From positions 1,276-65,275 of the forward strand of contig JAILGP010000002.1 in assembly GCA_024696635.1 (NCBI GenBank): a stretch of 64,000 nucleotides of DNA. Reading direction: 5' to 3'. The position numbers were made by a program, and so were the translations under genes. Below the pieces are notes generated by a model. It was not told the DNA's origin. It made no database searches and saw only the letters and a program-made list of their open reading frames with translations. Shown piece after piece: positions 16,958 to 27,757 of this stretch. The stretch comes from Eubacterium sp. Lineage in GTDB: Bacteria > Bacillota > Clostridia > Lachnospirales > Lachnospiraceae. The number at the start of each line of letters is the position of its first letter. The stretch's first letter is position 1.

Positions 16958-17740
16958 TTGAAAAATTATAGTAATAATATATGGTTAGGCATATTGAATT
17001 TAATATATAGAATTCATAGTAGTGAATCCATTGGAGAGATGGGAGATACAATTCTCAAGCAGATTCAATGGTTGGTTCCTTTTGACCAGGCATTGTTTTT
17101 TATAGCGCATGAAAATGGAGATATACATGTGGTGGCTTCTGAGGGGCTGGATGAAGATTATATAGATATGTATGAGACAAATTATAAAAAATATGATTAT
17201 GCTTCAGGGATTAAGATAGCTGGAAACAGTATAGTTTATAAAGATTCAGATATAATAGAAGAAGCAGTTTTCTTGAAATCATCTTTTTATAATCAGTTTT
17301 GTGAGCCTAATCATATTCGTTATGGTATACACGTGGTAATGATATATGCAAGTAAGTATTGTGGAGAAATAGTACTTTTCAGGGATAATGATACTATAAA
17401 TGCTACTAATTTCGGTGAAACTGCAGAATTTATACTGAATCTTCTTAAGGAGCATTTATCAATTTCATGTAACAGGCTCTTACTAAACAAGCCATATCAA
17501 AGAGAGATGTCTTCTTCAGAAGAAATTTTTACTAATCCTGAAGATAAGTATAGGGTTATGTATAATCTGACTAAAAGAGAATGTGAGGTTTTAATGCTTT
17601 TGTTGGAAGATATGTCAACAAATCAGATATGTGATGAATTAATCATATCTTTAAATACATTAAAGAAACATATTGCAAATCTGTATAGGAAACTTGAGGT
17701 GAGTTCAAGAGTACAACTTATACAAAAGATGAAGAGTTAA
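16958..17740 (+). CDS. LuxR-family transcriptional regulator with N-terminal GAF-like sensor domain
   Basis: C-terminal LTKRECEVLMLL...ICDELIISLNTLKKHIANLYRKLEVSSR HTH; AAGGAG RBS before TTG. Confidence 0.85.
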   Translation: MKNYSNNIWLGILNLIYRIHSSESIGEMGDTILKQIQWLVPFDQALFFIAHENGDIHVVASEGLDEDYIDMYETNYKKYDYASGIKIAGNSIVYKDSDIIEEAVFLKSSFYNQFCEPNHIRYGIHVVMIYASKYCGEIVLFRDNDTINATNFGETAEFILNLLKEHLSISCNRLLLNKPYQREMSSSEEIFTNPEDKYRVMYNLTKRECEVLMLLLEDMSTNQICDELIISLNTLKKHIANLYRKLEVSSRVQLIQKMKS

Positions 17741-17793: not shown

Positions 17794-18060
17794 ATACTAC
17801 TCAAGGGTTATAAGAGTAGTATATTTGGTAAAAGTATTAGAAAAAATAATTATGGAGTAGGAAGAATGGTACTAAAAGATATTAAAAAATTTCATGCATT
17901 GGTGTAATTGTTAAAGTATAGAAAATGCTTATAATAGGAAACATCTTAAGAAAAGGCAAACAAAGAGGTTTGATACATAAATGTGTCAAGCCTCTTTTCT
18001 GTTTTAAAGGAAAGATAGTTTTCTTATAGCCTGAGATAAAGAATAAAGGAGGAAAGAAAC

Positions 18061-18822
18061 ATGAGAATAGATTTGAATTGCGATCTGGGAGAAAGCTTTG
18101 GAAATTTCACGATGGGAAATGATAACGAGATGATGAAGTATATAACATCTGCAAACATAGCATGTGGATTTCATGCAGGGGATGCAAATGTAATGTGTCA
18201 AACGGTAAATATGGCTAAGAATGCAGGTGTTGCAATAGGAGCTCATCCAGGCTTTCCTGATCTTGAAGGCTTTGGTAGAAGAAATATGACATGTACTAAT
18301 AATGAAATAAAGAATTATATAAGGTATCAGGTTGGAGCCTTAAGGGAGTTTTGTAACTTCGCAGGAGTTGAGTTACAGCATGTAAAGCCACATGGAAACT
18401 TATATGTAATGGCTATGGAGGATGATGAGATGGCCAGGGCTATTCTAGAGGTGATTGCATCATTAGGAAAAAATGTTATTACATTTGCTCTTAATGACTC
18501 AGCTATTTCAAATATGGCTAAAAGTATGGGCGTTCCAGTAGCTATTGAAGGATATGGAGATAGGGAACATACAAATAATGGTCATATAGTTCAAATTAGA
18601 AAGGGGCCTGACGAAGACCGTGTTGAAAGGCTTACTAAGAGAGCTATTCGATTGGTTAAAGAGGGAAAGGTTATTACTAACACGGGAGACGATATAGATT
18701 TAAGGGTTCAGACCTTATGTGTACATGGTGATACATATGGTGCATGGGATCTTATGAAAAATATCAGAGAGAAACTTGAAAAGGAGAATATAGAAATTAC
18801 AGCCATAAGTAACTTCTTATAA
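18061..18822 (+). CDS. LamB/YcsF family protein (PxpA-like)
   Basis: DLNCDLGESFG, SANIACGFHAGD, IGAHPGFPDLEGFGRR, HVKPHG, TLCVHGDT. Confidence 0.92.
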   Translation: MRIDLNCDLGESFGNFTMGNDNEMMKYITSANIACGFHAGDANVMCQTVNMAKNAGVAIGAHPGFPDLEGFGRRNMTCTNNEIKNYIRYQVGALREFCNFAGVELQHVKPHGNLYVMAMEDDEMARAILEVIASLGKNVITFALNDSAISNMAKSMGVPVAIEGYGDREHTNNGHIVQIRKGPDEDRVERLTKRAIRLVKEGKVITNTGDDIDLRVQTLCVHGDTYGAWDLMKNIREKLEKENIEITAISNFL

Positions 18823-18828
18823 AGGAAG

Positions 18829-19596
18829 GTGATGGATATGTTAGAGGTAAAGAACATAAGAAAAAGCTTCGCCAGTAGTGAGGTGCAGGTACTTAAGGAT
18901 ATTAGTTTTACAATAGAAACTGGAGAATTTGTATGTCTTCTTGGAAAGAGTGGTTGTGGAAAAAGTACACTACTTGATCTTTTGGCTGGTTATACAAAGC
19001 CAGATGGTGGGGAATTGATAATTGATGGAAAAAAGATTAAAGGGCCTGGTATTGATAGGGGATTGGTTTTTCAGGAACATGCTTTATATCCCTGGTATAC
19101 CGTATATCAAAATATATGTTTTGGACCAAAGATTCAGAAAAAGAAAAATTATAACGAAGTTGCAGATGAATATCTGAATCTTATAGGTATGAAAAAATAT
19201 AGAGACTATTACCCCGATAGTCTTTCTGGAGGAATGAAACAGAGAGTAGGAATCGCAAGAGCTCTTGCTGCTGAACCAGATGTATTACTCATGGACGAAC
19301 CTTTTAGTGCATTAGATCCATCAACCAGGGCAAAGTTAAGAGATGACTTGATCGAAATCTGGCAGAAAACATCTAAAACAATAGTATTTGTTACCCACAG
19401 TGTTCCTGAAGCGGTGTATTTGGCTGACAGAGTCATAGCAATGAAAGATGGAACAATACAGTTTAACGAGAAGATAGATATAAAACGAAAAAGAGATATG
19501 AATGATCCCAAGTTTGTTGAATATGTAAATAAAATAGAAAACTTTATTTCAAGTAAGAAAAAGAATAAAGAAAAGCTGGTGGTGACAAATGATTAA
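18829..19596 (+). CDS. ABC transporter ATP-binding subunit (TauB/SsuB/NrtD type)
   Basis: GKSGCGKST, LSGGMKQR, LLMDEPFSALD, VFVTH. Confidence 0.92.
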   Translation: MMDMLEVKNIRKSFASSEVQVLKDISFTIETGEFVCLLGKSGCGKSTLLDLLAGYTKPDGGELIIDGKKIKGPGIDRGLVFQEHALYPWYTVYQNICFGPKIQKKKNYNEVADEYLNLIGMKKYRDYYPDSLSGGMKQRVGIARALAAEPDVLLMDEPFSALDPSTRAKLRDDLIEIWQKTSKTIVFVTHSVPEAVYLADRVIAMKDGTIQFNEKIDIKRKRDMNDPKFVEYVNKIENFISSKKKNKEKLVVTND

Positions 19597-19650
19597 AGGT
19601 CTGAATATCAGATAAAGCTATTCTAAATATATAGGATAGGAGGAAAGACT

Positions 19651-20448
19651 ATGAAAAATCATAATAAGAAAAGATATAAAGTCATAAGCGTAATTTCATT
19701 AATCATGTTTTTCGTCATATGGCAGATATATGCAATGCTGAATGCAAAGATGGGATGGATGAACAAAGCATTTCTCCCTGCCCCAACAGAAGTGCTTCTG
19801 ACATTTCAAAAGTTTTTCGAGGAAGGAACTTTGTTTGAACATATTACTGTGAGTCTTATGAGAATTTTTAAGGGCTTTTTTATAGGAAGTATCATAGGAG
19901 TGGTGGCGGGATATATTATGGCTAAGTTACCTGTTTTTGAAAGTATCCTACAGCCTATTATAAATATATTGGGAGCAATTCCACCATATGCATTTATGCC
20001 ACTGCTGATTATATGGTTTGGTGTAGGAGAATTTGCCAAAATCATAATGATTGTATTAGCAACATTTATTCCTGTACTTGCATCTACTATTCAGGGTGTA
20101 AAGAGTATAAATCCATTACATATCAGGGCGGCCAAAACCCTTGGCTGTAATGAATTTCAGTTGTTTTACCATGTGATTGTAAAAACAGCATTACCATTTA
20201 TTATTGCAGGAATGAAGACTAGTATATCACTTTGTTTTTCCGCATTGGTTGTAGCAGAGATGATTGGTTCAGATACAGGATTAGGTTTCATTATAGTTGA
20301 TGGACGAAATTGGTTTAAGGTTGCAAATATGTTTATGGCAATGACATCTATAGCTATATTGCAGACAGTATTTCAGGCTATTCTGACAATGCTAGAAAGG
20401 AAACTTTTTAAGTGGAAGAAGGAAGGTTTGTCTGCAGCAATTGAATAA
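19651..20448 (+). CDS. ABC transporter permease (TauC/SsuC type)
   Basis: FLPAP, IPPYAFMPLLIIWFGVGE, LVVAEMIG..TGLG. Confidence 0.92.
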   Translation: MKNHNKKRYKVISVISLIMFFVIWQIYAMLNAKMGWMNKAFLPAPTEVLLTFQKFFEEGTLFEHITVSLMRIFKGFFIGSIIGVVAGYIMAKLPVFESILQPIINILGAIPPYAFMPLLIIWFGVGEFAKIIMIVLATFIPVLASTIQGVKSINPLHIRAAKTLGCNEFQLFYHVIVKTALPFIIAGMKTSISLCFSALVVAEMIGSDTGLGFIIVDGRNWFKVANMFMAMTSIAILQTVFQAILTMLERKLFKWKKEGLSAAIE

Positions 20449-20561
20449 TAGATTTAGATATAGTTATTAAAATAGTGAGAGGACAAGGATCTTTAAAATC
20501 TAAGATCTTTGAAATAAATGACAACAATGTTAATGCATTGTTAGTAAAGGAGGAAAAAATT

Positions 20562-21602
20562 ATGAGGAAGAAAATTGGTGCGATTATTTTATCAGTAATG
20601 CTTAGTTTATCATTGTGTGCCTGTGGAGGAGATACTTCACAGACTTCAGCTAAATCAACAGAGGCTTCGGATTCTAATATGAAATTGAAGGTGATTGCAA
20701 CCCCGGCTCCAGCTTCATGTTCTCAGGTGGCTGTGGCTGAAGAAATGGGATATTTTGAAGAAGAAGGAGTAGATGTTGAAATCCAGTACGTAACTAATCT
20801 GTCTGATATGGCGTCTATTATAGCTGGTGGCGGATGCGATGCTGCATTTAATTCTTACTATACAGTTTTAACATGGATTGATTCAGGGCTTGATGTTAAG
20901 GTCATCGCTGCAAACAATGATATGGGTGGTACTCAGGCAGCAGCTATTAGAACAGATATAGAGATTAATAGTCCAAAGGATTTGGAGAATTGTAAGCTTG
21001 GTCTTGTTCCAGGTGCTGAGGTAAATGTGGCTATTATGAGAATGTGTGATGAATATGGAGTTGATTTTGATGCAATTAATAAGGTTGAAGTTCAGCCTGC
21101 AGATCAGTTATCAGCTTTTGAATCAGGTGATATTGATATTATTGCATGTTGGGAGCCTTGGTTAACAAAAGCAGAATCAATGGGAGGACGTTTTCTTCTT
21201 TCAGGAAACAAGGCAGATATAGAAGGTATTCCTTCTGATGTTGATTGGCTGACATTATATGAGACTACAGTTGTTCCTACATCTGCAGTTACTGAAAAGG
21301 CTGATGCTTTGGCAGCTATGCTTAGAGCAGTAAAGAAGGCAGAGTGTTATATTAATAGCAATCGTGATGAAGCAGTTGAAATAGTTGCTAAGGTTTGTGA
21401 AAGTGATGTAGACGAAATTGCAGGTATTATGGAAAAGAACGATTACAGATGGGGAGTAGATTCTCAGTATAAGGATACTATGTCATCACTTGAAGATTTC
21501 ATGTTTGAACATAAAATTATTCAGAATGATATTGAGTTTGATGATGTACATGATTTTTCGATATTAAAGAAGGCAGTCCCTGATGCATATACATTAGATT
21601 AG
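20562..21602 (+). CDS. ABC transporter substrate-binding lipoprotein (SsuA/TauA/NMT1-like)
   Basis: AAGGAGG RBS, lipobox LSLCACG, GYFEEEGVDVE, WEPW. Confidence 0.85.
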   Translation: MRKKIGAIILSVMLSLSLCACGGDTSQTSAKSTEASDSNMKLKVIATPAPASCSQVAVAEEMGYFEEEGVDVEIQYVTNLSDMASIIAGGGCDAAFNSYYTVLTWIDSGLDVKVIAANNDMGGTQAAAIRTDIEINSPKDLENCKLGLVPGAEVNVAIMRMCDEYGVDFDAINKVEVQPADQLSAFESGDIDIIACWEPWLTKAESMGGRFLLSGNKADIEGIPSDVDWLTLYETTVVPTSAVTEKADALAAMLRAVKKAECYINSNRDEAVEIVAKVCESDVDEIAGIMEKNDYRWGVDSQYKDTMSSLEDFMFEHKIIQNDIEFDDVHDFSILKKAVPDAYTLD

Positions 21603-21646
21603 TTGTTGATTATTGTATATTGGGTTGAGCCTATGGGAGGAATAGT

Positions 21647-22246
21647 ATGACTAATAACTATGTGATTACATTTACCAGACAGTTTGGAAGTCTGGGAAGG
21701 CAGGTGGCACAAAAGGTCTCTGAGATTATGGATATAGAATACTATGATAGAGATATAGTGGAGCATGCAGCGAAGAAAATGAATCTACCATCTGGAACCG
21801 TGACTGAGGCAGAGGAGTCGGTTAAGACTTCATTATTCAATATGCAATATCCCTTGGGACTGGGTACTACAAAGATTCAAGATAAGATTTTTGAGACGCA
21901 AAAAGAATTGATTAATGAATATGTTGAAAAGGAAAACTGTATAGTGGTTGGAAGATGTGCGGATTATATTCTGAGAGATCATCCAAGAAGCTTACATGTT
22001 TACTTATATGCGTCCTATGAGGAAAGAATAGTGAATTGTGTAAATGCACTTTATCTGACAGCGGCTGAAGCAAAGAAGATGATTAAAAGTGTTGACGCAG
22101 CAAGAGCTTCTTATCACAAACACTATGCAGGATACCTGCCTGGAGCTAAAGATCATTATGATATTCAGATTAATACATCTCTTCTTGGAGTAGATGGAAC
22201 TGCAGAGCTTATTGTTAATCTTGCTAATAAAAAATTTGGACTATAG
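21647..22246 (+). CDS. Cytidylate kinase-like family protein
   Basis: ITFTRQFGSLGR, CIVVGRCADYIL, HVYLYA, YDIQINTS. Confidence 0.8.
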   Translation: MTNNYVITFTRQFGSLGRQVAQKVSEIMDIEYYDRDIVEHAAKKMNLPSGTVTEAEESVKTSLFNMQYPLGLGTTKIQDKIFETQKELINEYVEKENCIVVGRCADYILRDHPRSLHVYLYASYEERIVNCVNALYLTAAEAKKMIKSVDAARASYHKHYAGYLPGAKDHYDIQINTSLLGVDGTAELIVNLANKKFGL

Positions 22247-22299
22247 AAGGGCGTCCTAATAAGAATCCCTTCAGTACTGATATAAGGAGGTAACGAGAT

Positions 22300-23283
22300 A
22301 TGAACAAGTATGATGTTATTATTTCTTCATTACCTGCCACAGAATGCAGAAAAGAGATATTTTTCAGACAAGCCGGAGATGGCTTTTTACAGGTTGAATA
22401 TGGCAAAATCCCAACTGTGGAGCTGATGGATTCTTTTAGAATGCTTGCGGTAGATGCAGAAATCAGAAAGATGAATATTCCTGGTTTAATTGAGACATTA
22501 CCTGGGGTTAGAACAAATCTTATACATTTTAATCCCCTGGTTATGTCTTATAAGGATTTGATAGATTATCTTACAGAAGCAGAGAATAAGATACAAAGTG
22601 TGGATGACATGGTTATTGATTCAAGGATAATAACCTTACCAATTACATTTGAGGATAGCAAAACGAAAAGTGCAGTTGAGTTATATGAGAAGTCTGTCAG
22701 AAAAGATGCTCCTAATGATATGGGTGGCTACAATCTGGAATACACGGCTCTTTGTAATGGTTGTACTGTTCAAGATATTAAGGATATGGTTAAAGGGACA
22801 TATTGGTATAACAGTGGATGCGGTTTTTATCCGGGAAATGCATTCTGGTGGCCTATGGATCCAAGATGTAAGATTTGTGTTCCCAAGGCTAATCCACCTA
22901 GAACCTGGACTCCAGAAGGTGCTGTTGGAATAGGAGGTGTTTCTCTTTGTACATATCCAAGTGATTCTGGAGGAGGAAATCAGTTATTTGGAAGAACTAT
23001 TCCTGTAATACAGATGAAAATGCTGCATCCTCAGTTTAAGGAATCTCCATTTCTATATAAAAGGTACGGTGATCGTATTAAATTCAGGGAAGTAGAAGAA
23101 ACAGAATTAAATGATATATGTGATATGGTCAACAATGGAACTGGATATGAATATGAAATTGAGGAAGGGAAAATTGTTGTTAAGGAATATCTGGAATTTA
23201 TTAATTCTAAAGAAGTAAAGGAAGGTGCGGCGGATCTTGTGAGACGTCAGCAGGAAGCTTCAAAAATAATTCCTAGAGTCTAG
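22300..23283 (+). CDS. Carboxyltransferase subunit, AHS1 domain, urea-carboxylase type
   Basis: RQAGDGFLQVEYG, PMDPR, NPPRTWTPEGAVGIGG, GGNQLFGRT resemble the urea carboxylase CT domain. Confidence 0.85.
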   Translation: MNKYDVIISSLPATECRKEIFFRQAGDGFLQVEYGKIPTVELMDSFRMLAVDAEIRKMNIPGLIETLPGVRTNLIHFNPLVMSYKDLIDYLTEAENKIQSVDDMVIDSRIITLPITFEDSKTKSAVELYEKSVRKDAPNDMGGYNLEYTALCNGCTVQDIKDMVKGTYWYNSGCGFYPGNAFWWPMDPRCKICVPKANPPRTWTPEGAVGIGGVSLCTYPSDSGGGNQLFGRTIPVIQMKMLHPQFKESPFLYKRYGDRIKFREVEETELNDICDMVNNGTGYEYEIEEGKIVVKEYLEFINSKEVKEGAADLVRRQQEASKIIPRV

Positions 23284-23296
23284 AGGAGGTGAAAAC

Positions 23297-24283
23297 ATGA
23301 TTAAAGTTCTAAATGGTGGAATTGAGATTGTAGTTGAAGATTGGCCTGGCAGAGTTGGATATATGGGACTTGGAATGTCACCTTCAGGAGCTCTAGACAA
23401 CCTTGCACTTCAGATAGGTAATATTATTGTTGGAAATGAACCCGGTGAGGCGGGAATAGAAATAACGGCTGGATATTGTTCCTTTGAGTTTACAGAGGAT
23501 AAGGTTATATGTCTGACTGGAACCGATATGTCGGCAAGAGTAAATGGCGAGATAGTACCTGTATGGGAAGCCTTTAAAGTAAAAGCTGGTGATCAGATAA
23601 AGTTCGATCATTTTTCTGAACAGGGATTTAGGACTTATATTTTAATAGCAGGAGGGATTGATGTTCCGCTTTACCTAGGTAGTAAATCAACCTGTTTATT
23701 TGGGTCATATGGTGGATATGAGGGAAGAAAGTTAAAGCCAGGGGATGAGCTTATGGGATTTGAGGTGGCAGATCAGGATAAGCTGATAGGAAGAAAGGTT
23801 AATCCTAAGTATAAGCCTCAATATAAAAATACATGGGATGTAAGGTTGATTGTGGGACCTGCTTCTGTTCCAGATTATGTTTCAGAAGAGGGAATGGACT
23901 ATCTGTTCTCGCATGAGCATAAGGTTAGACATGATTCTAATCGTTCTGGATATCGATTAGAAGAATTACCGTCATTTTTCTTTGCAAGGGAAAATGGTGG
24001 AGAGGGAGGAGACCATCCTTCTAACTGGATAGAATCCGGTTACAATATGTTGGGAGCTCTTAATATTAATGGTAATTTTCCAACCTTGTTAATTGGTGAT
24101 GGTCCTACATTTGGAGGCCTTATGTGTTCTGCAAATATTGTATATGCAGATTTATGGAAAATAGGTCAGACAATTCCTGGAAGAGACAAGATAAGATTTA
24201 TTCAGACAACACAGGAAGCTGCAGTGGAGGCAAGGATTGAGAGGATACAGATGTTAAAAAAGCCTGATTTAGTAATTGGATAG
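23297..24283 (+). CDS. Carboxyltransferase subunit, AHS2 domain (PxpC/KipA/urea-carboxylase type)
   Basis: DWPGRVG, GMSPSGALD, GNIIVGN, GGIDVPLYLGSKST, SNRSGYRL, HPSN, DGPTFGG. Confidence 0.88.
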   Translation: MIKVLNGGIEIVVEDWPGRVGYMGLGMSPSGALDNLALQIGNIIVGNEPGEAGIEITAGYCSFEFTEDKVICLTGTDMSARVNGEIVPVWEAFKVKAGDQIKFDHFSEQGFRTYILIAGGIDVPLYLGSKSTCLFGSYGGYEGRKLKPGDELMGFEVADQDKLIGRKVNPKYKPQYKNTWDVRLIVGPASVPDYVSEEGMDYLFSHEHKVRHDSNRSGYRLEELPSFFFARENGGEGGDHPSNWIESGYNMLGALNINGNFPTLLIGDGPTFGGLMCSANIVYADLWKIGQTIPGRDKIRFIQTTQEAAVEARIERIQMLKKPDLVIG

Positions 24284-24325
24284 TCAGGATAGCTATGTGA
24301 AATATAATAAATGGAGGAATAAGAT

Positions 24326-24547
24326 ATGGCTTTTACATTAGAGGCGCATATGCCAGGGCTTGTAGCTAGAGTTACATGTGAAATTGGTCAGGAAGTAGAA
24401 GAAAATCAGGAGCTTGTAGTTCTTAATTGTATGAAAACGGAAATTAGTTGTTTAAGTCCTAAGGCTGGAAAGGTAAAGGAAATTCTTGTAGCTGAATGGG
24501 ATGAAATGGATGTTGGAGTTCCTATGATTATATTAGATGAAATTTAA
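24326..24547 (+). CDS. Stand-alone biotin carboxyl carrier protein
   Basis: 73-aa biotinyl domain, HMPG...VVLNCMKTE (biotinyl-Lys in an MK motif); GGAGG RBS. Confidence 0.85.
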   Translation: MAFTLEAHMPGLVARVTCEIGQEVEENQELVVLNCMKTEISCLSPKAGKVKEILVAEWDEMDVGVPMIILDEI

Positions 24548-24560
24548 AAGAGGCGATTAT

Positions 24561-25187
24561 TTGAAGGTATTATTGATTAACGGGAGTCCTCGGATTAAGG
24601 GCTGTACCTATACGGCCCTTAGCATTGTTGAGGAGAGCCTGAAAGAAGAAGGAATTGAAACTGAAATATTCCATATTGGTACAAAGCCTATTAGAGGATG
24701 TGTAGAATGTAAGGCATGCTGGGATAGGGGGCAATGTGTATTTGAGGATGATATTCTAAAAAAATTGTATCCTAAGGTGGCTGATGCTGATGGGTTTGTT
24801 TTTGGATCACCAGTATATTTTGCTTCTGCAAATGGTAGCATGATAGCGTTAATGGATAGATTGTTTTATACAGCTAAAGATTTATGGCTGAAACCAGCTA
24901 CCTGTGTAGTTGCGGCCAGAAGAGGAGGAACAACGGCTGCGCTAGATGTATTGAATAAGTATCCTTCTAACAGAAATATGCCAATAATTTCATCGCAATA
25001 TTGGAATATGGTACATGGAAATGAACCTGAAGAGGTGATGAAGGATTTTGAGGGACTGCAGACAATGCGTACTTTAGGAAAAAATATGGCTTGGATTCTT
25101 AAATGTATTAAGGCTGGTGAAAATATGGGAATTAGTAAACCCCAGATAGAAGAAAAGATTAAAACTAATTTTATCCCTTCGGAATAG
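24561..25187 (+). CDS. Flavodoxin-like iron-sulfur flavoprotein / NADPH-dependent FMN reductase
   Basis: INGSPR, CxxCxxCxxxxxC (CVECKACWDRGQC), GSPVYF, ARRGG, WNMVHG; TTG 24561 chosen for its AGAGG RBS. Confidence 0.85.
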   Translation: MKVLLINGSPRIKGCTYTALSIVEESLKEEGIETEIFHIGTKPIRGCVECKACWDRGQCVFEDDILKKLYPKVADADGFVFGSPVYFASANGSMIALMDRLFYTAKDLWLKPATCVVAARRGGTTAALDVLNKYPSNRNMPIISSQYWNMVHGNEPEEVMKDFEGLQTMRTLGKNMAWILKCIKAGENMGISKPQIEEKIKTNFIPSE

Positions 25188-25202
25188 AAATGAGGTGACA
25201 TT

Positions 25203-26558
25203 ATGATCAGAAAGGTTTTGATAGCAAATAGGGGAGAAATTGTAAATCGCGTAATAAGAACATGCAAGAAAATGAATATTCAGACGGTAGTTATTTATTC
25301 AGATGCTGATAAGGATGCAACATATATAGCGGAAGCTGATGAGGCATATTATATAGGACCATCTGCTCCGGTTAAAAGCTATCTGAATAAGGATGCAATC
25401 ATTGACGTGATTAAAAAGTCTGGAGCAGATGCAGTACATCCTGGCTATGGATTTTTGTCAGAGTCTGCTGATTTTGCTAAAGAGGTTGCAATGACTGGTG
25501 CTATCTGGATCGGTCCTAAGCCTGAATTTTTAGAAAATATAGAATCAAAATGCTATTGTAGAAAGGTGGCTGAGAAGGCTGGTGTTCCAATTACACCTGG
25601 TACAACCAGTCCTGTCTCAAGTGTTGAGGAGATATATGATATAGCATCTGAAATTGGTCTCCCAGTACTTTTAAAATTGGATAAGGGAGGCGGAGGAAAG
25701 GGAATTGAGAAAATTAATTCTTTTGAATCTGAGGAACAGACAGAATCTATATTCTTAAATATGAAGAAGATAGGTGAGATGGCATTTGCATCAGGTGATG
25801 TGTATGTAGAAAAAGCTGTTCTAAACCCTAGACATATAGAAGTTCAATTTGTTTGTGACAATAAGGGAAATGTGGTTTGCCTTGGAGAACGCGAATGTTC
25901 AATACAGAGAAGATATCAGAAAATGATTGAGGAATCGCCTTCACCAGTGGTTACTGATAAGGACCGAGAAAGATTGTATGATTATACAAAAAGGCTTGTA
26001 AAAGCGATGAATTACACAGGAGCGGGAACGATAGAAATGCTCCGTGCTGGTAATGGTGAATATTATTTCATGGAAATAAATGCCCGACTTCAGGTGGAAC
26101 ATCCGGTTTCGGAATTTGTTACTGGTATTGATATAGTTGAGCAGCAGATTAAGATTGCAGACGGTTTACCATTATCATTTACACAGGATGATATTTATAT
26201 TAAAGGTCATGCAATTGAATGTAGGGTAAATGCAGAGGATCCTGTATCATTTACTCCAATGCCAGGTTCTATATCAAAGATAGCATTTCCTGATGTATCA
26301 AGTGGAAATATTCGTATAGAACATGCACTTTGTGATGGTTATAGAATTACGCCATATTATGATTCTATGATATTCAAACTTATAGCCTGGGGAGATGACA
26401 GACTGACATGTGTGGAGAATATGAAGAATGCTCTTAAACAGTTTAAAATTGAAGGGGTAAATACGACTATATCAACAGATCTTAGGATTTTGGAAAATGC
26501 TCATTTTTTATCAGGTAAATTCACTACTTCATTTTTGAAAGATGAAAGGTTTATTTAA
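25203..26558 (+). CDS. Biotin carboxylase subunit
   Basis: KVLIANRGEI, HPGYGFLSE, GGGGKG, PRHIEVQ, ERECSIQRRYQK, EINARLQVEHPV, YYDSM. Confidence 0.95.
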   Translation: MIRKVLIANRGEIVNRVIRTCKKMNIQTVVIYSDADKDATYIAEADEAYYIGPSAPVKSYLNKDAIIDVIKKSGADAVHPGYGFLSESADFAKEVAMTGAIWIGPKPEFLENIESKCYCRKVAEKAGVPITPGTTSPVSSVEEIYDIASEIGLPVLLKLDKGGGGKGIEKINSFESEEQTESIFLNMKKIGEMAFASGDVYVEKAVLNPRHIEVQFVCDNKGNVVCLGERECSIQRRYQKMIEESPSPVVTDKDRERLYDYTKRLVKAMNYTGAGTIEMLRAGNGEYYFMEINARLQVEHPVSEFVTGIDIVEQQIKIADGLPLSFTQDDIYIKGHAIECRVNAEDPVSFTPMPGSISKIAFPDVSSGNIRIEHALCDGYRITPYYDSMIFKLIAWGDDRLTCVENMKNALKQFKIEGVNTTISTDLRILENAHFLSGKFTTSFLKDERFI

Positions 26559-26608
26559 TATTAGTTCAAATTAATGATAGTAATTTTATTGGGAAAGAAT
26601 GTGATAAT

Positions 26609-27379
26609 ATGTTTGACAAATTATGTTATGAATATTATGAGTCTCTTGATTCTACAAATGAAAGAATTAAGGAAAGGGCAAGAAATGGAGCTGAGGAGGG
26701 ACTTGTAATCAGTGCGGATAGACAGACTGCAGGAAGGGGACGGATTGGAAGGAAATGGCAGAGCCCACAAGGTGAATGTGTGGCAACTTCTATGCTTATT
26801 TATCAGAACGATATTCCTTTAGATTCAATACCATCGATTACTGTTTTATGTGGACTGGCAGTGAGAAGTGCTTTAAGTCAGCTTTATGGGATGGAATGTC
26901 TGATTAAATGGCCTAATGATATTATTTTAAATGGGAAGAAAATATGTGGAATATTAGTGGAATATGAAACCTTGAGTAATGGATTATCCTTTTTGGTGGT
27001 TGGAATTGGTGTGAATGTACATCAGAAAAGTTTTTCTGATGATCTTGCTGATAAAGCTACATCAATTGATATGGAATTATTAGATACTACCATAAGACCT
27101 GTTCATAGAAGAGAGATTGTTGAGGTGATATGGACAAGCTTTATGACCTATTATAAAGAGTTTATTTTATATAACAATTTAAGTATTTTTAAGGAAGAAT
27201 ATGAAAAGCATTTGGTGAATATAGGAAATAGAGTGAGAATAGAAAGGGCTGAGGCAAGTTATGATGCAATTGCCCGTGGAATATCGGATTCAGGTGGATT
27301 AATTATTTATGTGAATGGAGAGGAACAAGAAATTAGAAATTATGAAGTGTCTGTACGTGGACTTTATGGATATGTTTAA
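26609..27379 (+). CDS. Biotin-protein ligase without a DNA-binding HTH
   Basis: LDSTN, QTAGRGRIGRKW, IKWPND, KKICGIL, GIGVNV. Confidence 0.92.
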   Translation: MFDKLCYEYYESLDSTNERIKERARNGAEEGLVISADRQTAGRGRIGRKWQSPQGECVATSMLIYQNDIPLDSIPSITVLCGLAVRSALSQLYGMECLIKWPNDIILNGKKICGILVEYETLSNGLSFLVVGIGVNVHQKSFSDDLADKATSIDMELLDTTIRPVHRREIVEVIWTSFMTYYKEFILYNNLSIFKEEYEKHLVNIGNRVRIERAEASYDAIARGISDSGGLIIYVNGEEQEIRNYEVSVRGLYGYV

Positions 27380-27390
27380 TTGTTTGTATT

Positions 27391-27422
27391 AAAAAGCTTG
27401 TAATAGACAGGCTTTTTATTTT
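27391..27422 (+). terminator. Intrinsic terminator ending the carboxylase operon
   Basis: aaaaagcttgt-aatag-acaggcttttt then attttt. Confidence 0.7.
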
Positions 27423-27474
27423 TATTAAGAAAATGCCTTGACAAATTCGATTTAACTAACTATTATTTAGCAAA

Positions 27475-27757
27475 TGGGCGTTGAAGAGAAGAGTAAGGTA
27501 AAAACAGCCTACAGAGAGGTTCGTGAATTCTGAGAACGAAACCAGGAAATGCTTACCCCAAGACCACCTCGGAGCCGTTGGTGATGAATCAACCGTAGAA
27601 CTACGTTACAGTTATTAATTGAGAGTCCTATATGTTTTGAGATATGTTTAATCAATATTTTAGATTAAATATGTGATATAGGAAATCGGGGTGGAACCGC
27701 GAGAATATCGTCCCCGGTGTACTTAGTAAGTACGCCGGGGTTTTTTATTTGTTAAGA
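27475..27757 (+). promoter_or_regulatory. Thr T-box riboswitch leader of thrS
   Basis: TTGACA-N17-TATTAT promoter upstream (27438); AG box agagag; GAA-ACC putative specifier (Thr codon 27541-27543); T-box aatcggggtggaaccgcg 27684-27701; terminator ccccggtgtac...gtacgccgggg-T6 from 27712. Confidence 0.93.

What the first reader, a model, noticed from the sequence alone, without database searches (positions are those of the whole stretch)
18061..27379. Self-contained split urea-carboxylase-like system of unknown substrate
One operon carries LamB/YcsF, a TauABC/SsuABC-type importer, AHS1 and AHS2 carboxyltransferase halves with urea-carboxylase-type motifs, a free BCCP, biotin carboxylase and a dedicated biotin ligase. 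Established: PxpABC (LamB + AHS1 + AHS2) is 5-oxoprolinase and needs no biotin, while urea/guanidine carboxylase is a fused BC-CT-BCCP normally paired with an amidase-type allophanate hydrolase. This locus mixes both and has no amidase. Inference: it carboxylates an imported N-compound (lactam, ureide or guanidine derivative), with the LamB protein as hydrolase.
Basis: partly seen in the sequence, partly recalled or inferred. Interest (0 to 1): 0.62.

Follow-up and report, generated by a model that had tools for sequence, protein, structure and literature searches.

The report
Biotin-driven lactam-opening operon in anaerobes
This rumen-type anaerobe carries an acquired eleven-gene operon, one branch of a widespread but untested enzyme family, that most likely imports a small ring amide, tags its nitrogen with CO2 from biotin and then opens the ring.

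Summary
Window 18061-27379 (+) is one operon: LamB/PxpA, an SsuABC-like importer, split urea-carboxylase-type carboxyltransferase halves, a 73-aa BCCP, biotin carboxylase and a BirA-type ligase.

The core LamB+AHS1+AHS2+BCCP+BC recurs in Clostridia, Negativicutes, Desulfotomaculia and Desulfobacterota. In 52 loci with full flanks, LamB and AHS2 are present in 52, BCCP in 49 and BC in 46. GABA-type aminotransferase, aldehyde:ferredoxin oxidoreductase or Fe-alcohol dehydrogenase genes often sit beside it, so the product is probably an omega-amino acid and the substrate a lactam.

The split carboxyltransferases form their own clade, sister to fused urea carboxylases. They keep the catalytic Lys/Tyr and HPSN loop that E. 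coli PxpBC lacks. They lack the Asp of the urea-carboxylase GLGDVY motif. The genome has no allophanate hydrolase or DUF1989 gene.

The window's subtype (four loci) is a fast-evolved branch with its own importer and regulator, so its substrate differs and remains unknown. Sampled congeners lack both the operon and any biotin carboxylase, which explains why it is self-contained.

No biochemical characterisation was found. The scan has flagged related PxpBC-type biotin systems on other DNA before.

The parts
16958..17740 (+). LuxR/GerE-type regulator with a GAF-like N-terminal ligand domain; probable activator of the operon
   Evidence: Pfam GerE at residues 203-256. The N-terminal domain resembles GAF/autoinducer-binding folds in the protein atlas. 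It is conserved upstream of the operon in L001, L002 and L089 at 50-79% identity.
17908..17997 (+). Promoter-like site (17908-17935) followed by a conserved leader hairpin with a U-run (17962-17997); possible attenuator
   Evidence: Consensus scan. The -10 box and hairpin are conserved in WIN, L001 and L002 with G-C/G-U exchanges, although synonymous sites are saturated. The fold has z = -4.8. No Rfam family matches.
18061..18822 (+). LamB/PxpA-family hydrolase; proposed ring-opening amidohydrolase
   Evidence: PF03746 at 305 bits. NCBIfam NF003814 PxpA subfamily at 313 bits, cut-off 226. PDB 1v6t at E 2.5e-73. In the tree it is sister to the other BC-linked LamBs, on a 0.69 stem.
18829..21602 (+). 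ABC importer: ATPase 18829-19596, permease 19651-20448, NMT1/SsuA/ThiY-like binding protein 20475-21602
   Evidence: Pfam ABC_tran, BPD_transp_1 and NMT1. TIGR01728 SsuA_fam scores 111 bits, below its cut-off. The best solved relative is ThiY 3ix1 at E 1e-8. Only the four window-type loci carry it.
21647..22246 (+). Cytidylate-kinase-like PF13189 protein with a degenerate P-loop (GSLGRQ); accessory subunit of unknown role
   Evidence: PF13189 at 160 bits. PDB 3hdt 'putative kinase' at E 7e-22. Sequence. It lies next to BC or AHS1 in about 10 Clostridia loci.
22300..23283 (+). Carboxyltransferase half AHS1 (CT subdomains C and D), urea-carboxylase type, 327 aa; carries the catalytic Lys196 and Tyr219
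   Evidence: PF02682; TIGR02712 at 221 bits against PxpB at 53. It aligns to 3va7/5i8i residues 824-1118. K196 corresponds to KlUA K1605, the general base (PMC5770610). Motif comparison.
23297..24283 (+). Carboxyltransferase half AHS2 (CT subdomains A and B), urea-carboxylase type, 328 aa; carries the GGxGGxHPSN loop
   Evidence: PF02626 at 247 bits; TIGR02712 at 298 bits against PxpC at 163. It aligns to 3va7 residues 479-787. The HPSN loop is shared with fused UC and absent from E. coli PxpC.
24326..24547 (+). Free 73-aa biotin carboxyl carrier protein; biotinyl-Lys in the motif NCMKTE
   Evidence: PF00364. Sequence. NCMKTE is found in 28 of 45 family BCCPs.
24537..25187 (+). FMN_red family flavin reductase; a recent insertion that is not part of the conserved system
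   Evidence: PF03358. It is present only in WIN and L002 and absent in L001 and L089. A paralogue on contig C8 is 48.5% identical.
25203..26558 (+). Biotin carboxylase (ATP-grasp); the only one in this genome
   Evidence: Pfam Biotin_carb_N, CPSase_L_D2 and Biotin_carb_C. Motifs GGGGKG and EINARLQVEH are intact. No other BC is found in the 97%-complete genome.
26609..27379 (+). Group-I biotin-protein ligase (no HTH), dedicated to the operon
   Evidence: TIGR00121 at 175 bits, cut-off 83. A second ligase, 33% identical, lies on contig C137. BirA also occurs in 8 of 52 related loci.
27390..27418 (+). Terminator-like hairpin that ends the operon
   Evidence: The T-box leader of thrS follows at 27472-27718.

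Best explanation
The operon encodes a self-contained, biotin-dependent machine that opens ring amides (lactams). It is the split, bacterial counterpart of the fungal LamA/LamB pair.

Proposed steps:
1. The GAF-LuxR regulator senses the compound and switches the operon on.
2. The SsuABC-like ABC system imports the compound.
3. BirA biotinylates the 73-aa carrier.
4. Biotin carboxylase uses ATP and bicarbonate to make carboxybiotin.
5. The AHS1/AHS2 heterodimer, a urea-carboxylase-type carboxyltransferase, passes the carboxyl group to the ring amide nitrogen. This turns an inert lactam into an activated N-carboxy-lactam.
6. LamB hydrolyses the activated ring.
7. The resulting carbamate loses CO2 spontaneously and leaves an amino acid.

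The net reaction is lactam + ATP + H2O -> amino acid + ADP + Pi, with bicarbonate acting catalytically, as in urea amidolyase.

Shown here: the gene content, operon structure, conservation, family placement, retained catalytic residues and genomic context.

Inferred: the chemistry, and lactam as the substrate class. In the main family the product is probably GABA or a close omega-amino acid. The window's own fast-evolved subtype has its own importer and 27 changes at otherwise near-invariant carboxyltransferase positions. It probably takes a different, possibly bulkier, ring amide that cannot be named from sequence.
For: (1) Gene identities and tight operon structure.

(2) Core conservation. 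In 52 loci with full flanks, AHS2 and LamB are present in 52, BCCP in 49 and BC in 46. The hosts span Clostridia, Negativicutes, Desulfotomaculia, Desulfobacterota and Myxococcota-labelled MAGs.

(3) Context in related loci.
- A class-III aminotransferase lies within 6 kb in 23 of 52 loci. The C. ljungdahlii copy passes the TIGR00700 GABA-transaminase cut-off (507.4 against 506.65 bits).
- Aldehyde:ferredoxin oxidoreductase, Fe-alcohol dehydrogenase and PucR or sigma-54 regulators also recur.
- Candidate uptake genes are a TorT-like binding protein with an ABC system, and DUF1097 membrane proteins.

(4) Phylogeny. The CT halves form a monophyletic clade (SH-aLRT 99) sister to all fused urea carboxylases.

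(5) Residues. They keep K196 (the KlUA K1605 general base, PMC5770610), Y219, the DPR motif and the HPSN loop. All of these are absent from E. coli PxpBC. BC and BCCP motifs are intact.

(6) Precedents.
- A. nidulans lamA/lamB are lactam-catabolic genes co-regulated with the GABA genes gatA and gabA (PMC8016842).
- The P. putida PxpABC paralogue PP_2920-2 is a butyrolactam hydrolase (bioRxiv 10.1101/2021.12.09.472016).
- Mycobacterial PxpBC homologues bind the biotin of a BCCP in a carboxylation-ready position (PMC13012033).

(7) The genes are under strong purifying selection: dN 0.04-0.08 with dS saturated.
Against: - No biochemical or expression data exist for any member.
- The window's operon has no aminotransferase or aldehyde-oxidising gene, and no close Fe-ADH lies elsewhere in the genome. 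The lactam-to-omega-amino-acid argument is therefore borrowed from relatives whose CT halves are only 53-65% identical and whose LamB is 36-45% identical.
- The aminotransferase type does not fix the ring size; C3 to C5 omega-amino acids are all possible.
- OYE or FMN reductase genes in some loci hint at an extra redox step that is not explained.
- That A. nidulans LamA is urea-carboxylase-like is recalled from UniProt, not tested here.
- The roles of D1584 and Y1628 in KlUC are recalled from Fan et al. 2012, which could not be read.
Confidence: 0.55

Rival explanations
1. It is a 5-oxoprolinase. 5-Oxoproline is imported or formed in the cell and converted to glutamate, with the biotin module as a variant energy-coupling device.
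For: LamB scores above the NCBIfam PxpA subfamily cut-off (313 against 226 bits). It is 45-49% identical to LamBs that sit next to short PxpB/PxpC genes. The genome has no other LamB, AHS1 or AHS2 gene. 5-Oxoproline is itself a lactam, so the proposed chemistry would be the same.
Against: AHS1 and AHS2 fail the PxpB and PxpC equivalog cut-offs by a wide margin (53 against 146 bits; 163 against 500 bits). They belong to the urea-carboxylase side of the tree. Related loci carry GABA-type aminotransferase, AOR or Fe-ADH genes, which a glutamate product would not need. None of the 30 sampled relatives, 18 of them congeners, has AHS1, so the operon is not a housekeeping repair function here.
Confidence: 0.15
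2. The AHS1/AHS2 pair does not transfer a carboxyl group. It only docks on or sequesters biotinyl-BCCP, as mycobacterial MSMEG_0435/0436 do. LamB+AHS1+AHS2 would then work as a PxpABC-like ATP-dependent lactamase, with BC and BCCP acting as regulators.
For: MSMEG_0435-0436 bind and sequester the biotin of AccA3 BCCP domains and lower propionyl-CoA carboxylase activity, and no carboxylase activity was detected (PMC13012033).
Against: The mycobacterial proteins lack key urea-carboxylase residues. This family keeps K196, Y219, DPR and HPSN. A dedicated BC, BCCP and often BirA are co-inherited with the CT genes in 46 of 52 loci. In this genome no other biotin carboxylase exists to be regulated.
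Confidence: 0.1
3. It is a split urea or guanidine carboxylase used for nitrogen assimilation.
For: The best NCBIfam and PDB matches of both CT halves are urea carboxylase. Public sources name some homologues 'urea carboxylase'.
Against: - The Asp of the GLGDVY motif present in bona fide UC/UA sequences is deleted (GCG-F[WY]PG).
- The genome has one amidase-family gene only, probably GatA, so no allophanate hydrolase candidate, and no DUF1989/CgdAB gene.
- No guanidine riboswitch or any other Rfam element lies upstream.
- The family is a separate clade, not nested in UC.
- LamB is present in 52 of 52 loci, and neither the urea nor the guanidine pathway needs it.
Confidence: 0.05
4. BC, BCCP and BirA are the cell's housekeeping acetyl-CoA carboxylase parts that happen to sit in this operon. 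They serve the accD/accA genes found on contig C126.
For: The genome has accD/accA next to an AMP-binding enzyme, an ACP and a FabK-like gene, but no other BC or AccB-type BCCP.
Against: BC and BCCP travel with AHS1, AHS2 and LamB across phyla. The 73-aa carrier lacks the AccB N-terminal part and carries the family-specific NCMKTE motif. None of 18 same-genus genomes has any BC at E <= 1e-40. A shared, moonlighting use in this strain cannot be excluded.
Confidence: 0.05

Closest known systems
Fungal lactam utilisation pair LamA/LamB (Aspergillus nidulans; AmdR regulon)
   Same: A LamB/YcsF protein is paired with a biotin-type, urea-carboxylase-like enzyme for lactam (2-pyrrolidinone) use. It is co-regulated with omega-amino-acid genes (gatA, gabA; PMC8016842), just as related bacterial loci carry a GABA-type aminotransferase. 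Fungal UC-only proteins of about 1240 aa share the loss of the Asp in GLGDVY.
   Different: LamA is one fused BC-CT-BCCP chain. Here there are five separate proteins in the gene order AHS1-AHS2, plus an importer, a biotin ligase and a kinase-like protein. In the tree the split family is sister to all fused forms, not nested with the fungal clade. The LamA mechanism has never been shown.
Urea carboxylase / urea amidolyase (K. lactis 3VA7, 5I8I; TIGR02712)
   Same: Both have a four-subdomain CT fold that matches along its whole length. Both have the catalytic Lys (K1605 = K196), the conserved Tyr, the DPR and HPSN motifs, and BC and BCCP partners. The logic is the same: N-carboxylation of an amide followed by hydrolysis.
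   Different: This system is split into subunits. The Asp of GLGDVY is deleted. There is no allophanate hydrolase; a LamB hydrolase takes its place. It forms a separate clade on a 0.91 stem. It occurs in strict anaerobes.
Prokaryotic PxpABC 5-oxoprolinase and its lactamase paralogues (E. coli YbgJKL, B. subtilis KipI/KipA/YcsF, C. difficile KipOTIA, P. putida PP_2920-2 butyrolactam hydrolase)
   Same: Both have LamB/PxpA plus the AHS1 and AHS2 folds in the gene order B-C. Both do ATP-dependent lactam ring opening, and substrates vary among lactams.
   Different: PxpB is about 220 aa, without the N-terminal subdomain and C-terminal extension. E. coli PxpBC lacks K196 (it has Arg), DPR and the HPSN loop. 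No BC or BCCP is encoded. The CT halves here fail the PxpB and PxpC model cut-offs.
PxpBC-type operons with their own BC and BCCP in Proteobacteria, E. coli islands and Lactiplantibacillus pentosus (earlier scan notes e1-5248339, e1-104647, e1-2547789, e1-2893337; PMC12427679)
   Same: They share the idea of a LamB plus KipI/KipA-like pair wired to a dedicated biotin carboxylase and a minimal BCCP, sometimes with GabT/GabD. They are likewise uncharacterised.
   Different: By their descriptions those use short PxpB/PxpC-type subunits. Here the halves are full urea-carboxylase-type CT domains from a different, anaerobe-centred clade. The relationship was not tested by a tree.
Mycobacterial MSMEG_0435/0436 (Rv0263c/Rv0264c) bound to the long-chain acyl-CoA carboxylase (PDB 9YX5)
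   Same: AHS1/AHS2-fold proteins physically engage biotinyl-BCCP with the biotin poised in the pocket.
   Different: They lack the urea-carboxylase catalytic residues, have no dedicated BC, BCCP or LamB partner in the complex, and act as inhibitors of another carboxylase.

Membership tests
Urea carboxylase (EC 6.3.4.6, TIGR02712) | Single BC-CT-BCCP polypeptide scoring above the equivalog cut-off (1303.85 bits) | tested here: not met
   The system is made of separate proteins. Partial scores are 221 bits (AHS1), 298 (AHS2), 466 (BC) and 37 (BCCP).
Urea carboxylase (EC 6.3.4.6, TIGR02712) | Catalytic general base Lys1605 (KlUA numbering) in the CT domain | tested here: met
   K196 of AHS1 aligns with K1605. 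It is invariant in the family. Its role is stated in PMC5770610.
Urea carboxylase (EC 6.3.4.6, TIGR02712) | Asp in the GLGDVY motif (KlUA D1584; its role in urea binding is recalled, not verified) | tested here: not met
   The residue is deleted. The family reads GCG-F[WY]PG, while UC/UA sequences read GLGDVY.
Urea carboxylase (EC 6.3.4.6, TIGR02712) | Partner allophanate hydrolase (amidase signature family) | tested here: not met
   There is none in the locus. The genome has one PF01425 gene, probably GatA. No amidase family was seen among the gene families Pfam-annotated here; not every cluster was annotated.
Urea carboxylase (EC 6.3.4.6, TIGR02712) | Placement inside the UC clade | tested here: not met
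   The split family is a sister clade: SH-aLRT 99 for the split family and 98 for the fused forms (quick search, rooted on a single long outgroup branch).
Guanidine carboxylase pathway | Carboxyguanidine deiminase CgdAB (DUF1989) partner and a guanidine-I riboswitch | tested here: not met
   No PF09347 match in the genome. No Rfam hit upstream of the operon.
PxpABC 5-oxoprolinase | PxpA (LamB/YcsF) subunit | tested here: met
   NF003814 subfamily at 313 bits, cut-off 226. The equivalog models fall below their cut-offs.
PxpABC 5-oxoprolinase | PxpB and PxpC equivalog-level subunits | tested here: not met
   TIGR00370 at 52.7 bits against 145.55; NF045499 at 163 against 500; TIGR00724 at 214.8 against 230.2.
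PxpABC 5-oxoprolinase | Activity on 5-oxoproline without biotin | not testable with these tools
   This needs an enzyme assay. The context (dedicated BC, BCCP and BirA) argues for biotin use.
Biotin-dependent carboxylases (general) | ATP-grasp BC with its glycine loop and E/N/R/Q/E/H motif, BCCP with a Met-Lys biotinylation site, and a biotin-protein ligase | tested here: met
   GGGGKG and EINARLQVEH in BC; NCMKTE in BCCP; TIGR00121 ligase.
Fungal LamA/LamB lactam utilisation system | UC-like biotin enzyme paired with a LamB protein | tested here: met
   The pairing holds in 52 of 52 loci, in split form. That LamA is UC-like is recalled from UniProt, not tested.
Fungal LamA/LamB lactam utilisation system | Link to omega-amino-acid (GABA) catabolic genes | tested here: inconclusive
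   Met in related loci: the aminotransferase is present in 23 of 52, with AOR or Fe-ADH in others. Not met in the window-type operon.
Fungal LamA/LamB lactam utilisation system | Growth on or turnover of 2-pyrrolidinone | not testable with these tools
   This needs culture or enzyme work.

The most novel reading that the evidence does not exclude
N-carboxylation by carboxybiotin is a general and so far unproven way to make inert ring amides hydrolysable. This anaerobe-wide split family would be its free-standing form and a mechanistic key to how LamA/LamB, and perhaps PxpABC, work. Within it, the window's subtype has been re-tooled for a new ring compound of the rumen or gut that has not been recognised as a substrate. 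The re-tooling comprises long stems in LamB and in the carboxyltransferase halves, Tyr-to-Ala and Tyr-to-Asn changes next to the catalytic Lys region, a new SsuA-like importer and a GAF-LuxR sensor. A cytidylate-kinase-like protein would be an additional, undescribed subunit.
Probability: 0.3. Interest if true: 0.75.

Novelty: new variant of a known kind. Interest (0 to 1): 0.55.

Why it matters
How LamB-type lactamases spend ATP has been open since lamA/lamB were described genetically and PxpABC was found in 2017. A 2026 structure showed mycobacterial PxpBC homologues gripping biotinyl-BCCP with no known reason.

A split system whose parts can be expressed separately makes the idea directly testable: carboxylate the amide nitrogen, hydrolyse, lose CO2. 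It occurs in culturable anaerobes such as Clostridium ljungdahlii.

The finding also corrects routine annotation. These genes are usually named 'allophanate hydrolase subunit', 'urea carboxylase' or 'extra acetyl-CoA carboxylase copy'.

It points to anaerobic use of lactams (2-pyrrolidinone and relatives, including nylon-type monomers) in guts and sediments. It also offers ATP-driven lactam-opening enzymes, binding proteins and regulators as biocatalysis and biosensor parts.

Tried and rejected
- Contexts came from the search for related loci, the genome search and the fetch from genomes instead.
- **Papers not held.** Niehaus 2017, Fan 2012 and Katz and Hynes 1989 could not be read. The roles of D1584 and Y1628, and the statement that LamA is UC-like, therefore rest on memory.
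- **Literature searches.** Searches for a characterised biotin-dependent bacterial lactamase found none.
- **Bicarbonate importer idea.** I considered that the ABC system imports bicarbonate or nitrate like CmpA/NrtA. The matches are marginal (E about 2e-4), weaker than to ThiY or SsuA, so it was set aside but not excluded.
- **u201 protein.** I considered that the 201-aa protein between BCCP and BC in Desulfobacterota loci equals the kinase-like protein. There is no similarity and it looks like a membrane protein.
- **Separate origin of LamB.** I considered that the window LamB was recruited from a canonical pxpABC operon. The tree places it as a long-branched sister of the other BC-linked LamBs (support 90), so no separate origin is shown.
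- **Insertion borders.** DNA synteny with congeners could not define them because the species are only 65-75% identical.
- **Protein atlas.** Searches on the binding protein and on the regulator's N-domain gave family-level names only.
- **Structure prediction.** None was run. The pocket lies between two chains and only single chains can be folded.

Full report
**Observation**

The stretch 18061-27379 on the + strand holds eleven co-directional genes. Gaps are 54 nt or less, and one pair overlaps by 11 nt. Pfam and NCBIfam identify them as follows:

| Coordinates | Gene |
|---|---|
| 18061-18822 | LamB/PxpA |
| 18829-19596 | ABC ATPase |
| 19651-20448 | Permease |
| 20475-21602 | NMT1/SsuA-like binding protein |
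| 21647-22246 | Cytidylate-kinase-like PF13189 protein |
| 22300-23283 | CT_C_D (AHS1, 327 aa) |
| 23297-24283 | CT_A_B (AHS2, 328 aa) |
| 24326-24547 | 73-aa biotinyl carrier |
| 24537-25187 | FMN_red reductase |
| 25203-26558 | Biotin carboxylase |
| 26609-27379 | BirA-type ligase without an HTH |

Everything else is as described.

A GAF-LuxR regulator (16958-17740) lies upstream. It is followed by a promoter-like site and a conserved leader hairpin. A terminator-like hairpin lies at 27390-27418, and the T-box of thrS follows.

**Which carboxyltransferase family**

Both halves score far better against urea carboxylase TIGR02712 (221 and 298 bits) than against PxpB (53) or PxpC (163). They align along their whole length with the CT domain of K. 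lactis urea carboxylase 3VA7/5I8I. PxpBC-type structures (5DUD, 3MML, 9YX5) match only partly.

I built a tree from the concatenated AHS2+AHS1 regions of 31 split sequences, 23 fused urea-carboxylase-type proteins and E. coli PxpBC.
- The split proteins form one clade (SH-aLRT 99, stem 0.91).
- That clade is sister to all fused forms (SH-aLRT 98).
- This was a quick search with a single, long outgroup branch, so the root position is provisional.

Column comparison gives three results:
- The split family shares several features with the fused enzymes: K196, Y219, a DPR motif and the GGxGGxHPSN loop of AHS2. K196 corresponds to KlUA K1605, described as the essential general base in PMC5770610.
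- E. coli PxpBC lacks all of these.
- Bona fide urea carboxylases and amidolyases read GLGDVY. The split family reads GCG-F[WY]PG, so the Asp is deleted. The fungal UC-only proteins of about 1240 aa also lack it.

BC keeps GGGGKG and EINARLQVEH. The carrier has the family-typical NCMKTE motif, found in 28 of 45 family BCCPs.

**How widespread the system is**

A scan of one genome per GTDB species found 125 loci encoding a relative, and 80 were fetched. Hosts include Clostridium ljungdahlii and C. ragsdalei, Propionispira, Lachnospiraceae, Anaerovoracaceae, Desulfotomaculia and many Desulfobacterota.

In the 52 loci with at least 5 kb upstream and 6 kb downstream, the counts within 6 kb of AHS1 are:

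| Gene | Loci (of 52) |
|---|---|
| AHS2 | 52 |
| LamB | 52 |
| BCCP | 49 |
| BC | 46 |

Clustering all neighbouring ORFs across the 80 loci and annotating the common families gave:
- a class-III aminotransferase in 32 loci (23 of the 52 within 6 kb). The C. ljungdahlii copy passes the GABA-transaminase equivalog cut-off;
- sigma-54 activators in 28 loci;
- DUF1097 membrane proteins in 22;
- a TorT-like binding protein with an ABC system in about 18-20;
- aldehyde:ferredoxin oxidoreductase in 18;
- OYE-type flavoenzymes in 13;
- PucR regulators in 8;
- Fe-alcohol dehydrogenases in 7.

An aminotransferase followed by an aldehyde oxidoreductase or reductase is the standard route for omega-amino acids. 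The product of the core enzyme in most loci is therefore probably GABA or a close homologue. That makes the substrate a lactam such as 2-pyrrolidinone.

**The window's own subtype**

Only L001, L002 and L089 share the window's layout: LuxR, LamB, SsuABC-like importer, kinase-like gene, AHS1, AHS2, BCCP, BC, BirA. The FMN reductase is present only in the window and L002.
- These genes are under strong purifying selection: dN 0.04-0.08 with dS saturated.
- In the CT tree the subtype sits on a 0.51 stem inside the Clostridia subclade.
- Its LamB sits on a 0.69 stem as sister to the other BC-linked LamBs.
- 27 columns that are nearly invariant in the other split proteins are changed. They include Y197A, next to the catalytic Lys, and Y227N, a Tyr kept in all 23 fused enzymes.
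- It has no aminotransferase or aldehyde enzyme in the operon, and the genome has no close Fe-ADH.

I read this as a coordinated shift to another ring amide. Whether the changed residues line the pocket was not tested.

**Why the operon is self-contained**

The genome is 3.15 Mb and 97% complete. It has no other biotin carboxylase, LamB, AHS1 or AHS2.
- Its other biotin protein belongs to an MmdA/MmdC-like decarboxylase.
- None of 18 same-genus genomes has a biotin carboxylase at E <= 1e-40.
- None of 30 sampled relatives has AHS1.
- No operon DNA was found in 25 congeners.

The operon is therefore an acquired accessory module that had to bring its own BC, carrier and ligase.

**Mechanism proposed (inferred)**

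BC makes carboxybiotin on the carrier. AHS1/AHS2 transfer the carboxyl group to the lactam nitrogen. LamB hydrolyses the activated N-carboxy-lactam, and the carbamate then decarboxylates. This parallels urea amidolyase, which carboxylates urea and then hydrolyses allophanate.

It fits three precedents:
- the fungal lamA/lamB genes, co-regulated with GABA genes;
- lactam specificity differences among PxpABC paralogues in P. putida;
- the 2026 structure of mycobacterial PxpBC homologues holding biotinyl-BCCP.

**Alternatives**

A urea or guanidine carboxylase is unlikely for four reasons:
- the Asp of the GLGDVY motif is missing;
- the genome has no allophanate hydrolase candidate and no DUF1989 gene;
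- no riboswitch lies upstream;
- LamB is always present.

A 5-oxoprolinase role cannot be excluded for the window subtype, but it is not favoured. A purely regulatory biotin-binding role and a housekeeping-ACC reading are weaker. The second has one point in its favour: accD/accA exist on contig C126 without accB/accC.

**Novelty**

No paper describing this system was found. One genome paper lists such BC/BCCP and PxpB/PxpC genes of Lactiplantibacillus pentosus as an extra ACC copy and an incomplete 5-oxoprolinase.

Earlier notes of this scan describe PxpBC-type operons with their own BC and BCCP in other genomes. The general idea has therefore been seen before on other DNA. What is new here:
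- an anaerobe-wide clade with full urea-carboxylase-type CT halves;
- its context evidence;
- the divergent window subtype.

I class it as a new variant of a known kind.

Noticed in passing
window 17908-17997: A conserved promoter-like site is followed, about 25 nt after the likely transcription start, by a 16-bp hairpin with a U-run. The sequence and pairing are kept in WIN, L001 and L002 although synonymous sites are saturated. The fold has z = -4.8 and no Rfam family matches. It may be a transcription attenuator or a stabilising 5' hairpin.
   Followed up: partly
G000 contig C126:66700-68700 (L081 10757-12645): The genome has accD and accA beside an AMP-binding enzyme, an ACP and a FabK-like gene, but no accB or accC. 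None of 18 same-genus genomes has a biotin carboxylase at E <= 1e-40. How this genus makes malonyl-CoA, or what these AccDA proteins do, is unexplained.
   Followed up: partly
window 24537-25187: An FMN_red reductase gene is inserted between BCCP and BC, overlapping BCCP by 11 nt. It is present only in the window and L002, not in L001 or L089. A paralogue 48.5% identical lies on contig C8.
   Followed up: partly
window 24326-24547 and family BCCPs: The carrier proteins of this family use an unusual biotinylation motif, NCMKTE, with Cys before Met-Lys, in 28 of 45 members. This may be why several loci carry their own biotin ligase.
   Followed up: no
window 21647-22246; L003, L008, L011, L015, L016, L022: A PF13189 'cytidylate kinase-like' protein with a degenerate P-loop (GSLGRQ) is linked to BC or AHS1 in about ten Clostridia loci. 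Its closest structures (3HDT, 3FDI) have no known function.
   Followed up: partly
protein P0253 (1235 aa; metagenomic): This protein has an odd fused architecture. A truncated AHS2 part (residues 1-178) and a full AHS1 (193-517) are joined to what sources call a pyruvate/oxaloacetate carboxyltransferase and a biotin carrier. It is a possible further variant of the family.
   Followed up: no
window 27472-27718: A T-box leader lies upstream of thrS at 91.4 bits, just under the Rfam gathering score of 93. It has its own terminator at 27712-27740.
   Followed up: no
L018, L026, L049, L050, L057, L060, L066, L074: A hydrophobic protein of about 201 aa with no Pfam match sits between BCCP and BC, or after BC, mainly in Desulfobacterota loci, with a few Bacillota. 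It may be a membrane channel for the substrate, analogous to DUF1097 in the Clostridia loci.
   Followed up: partly
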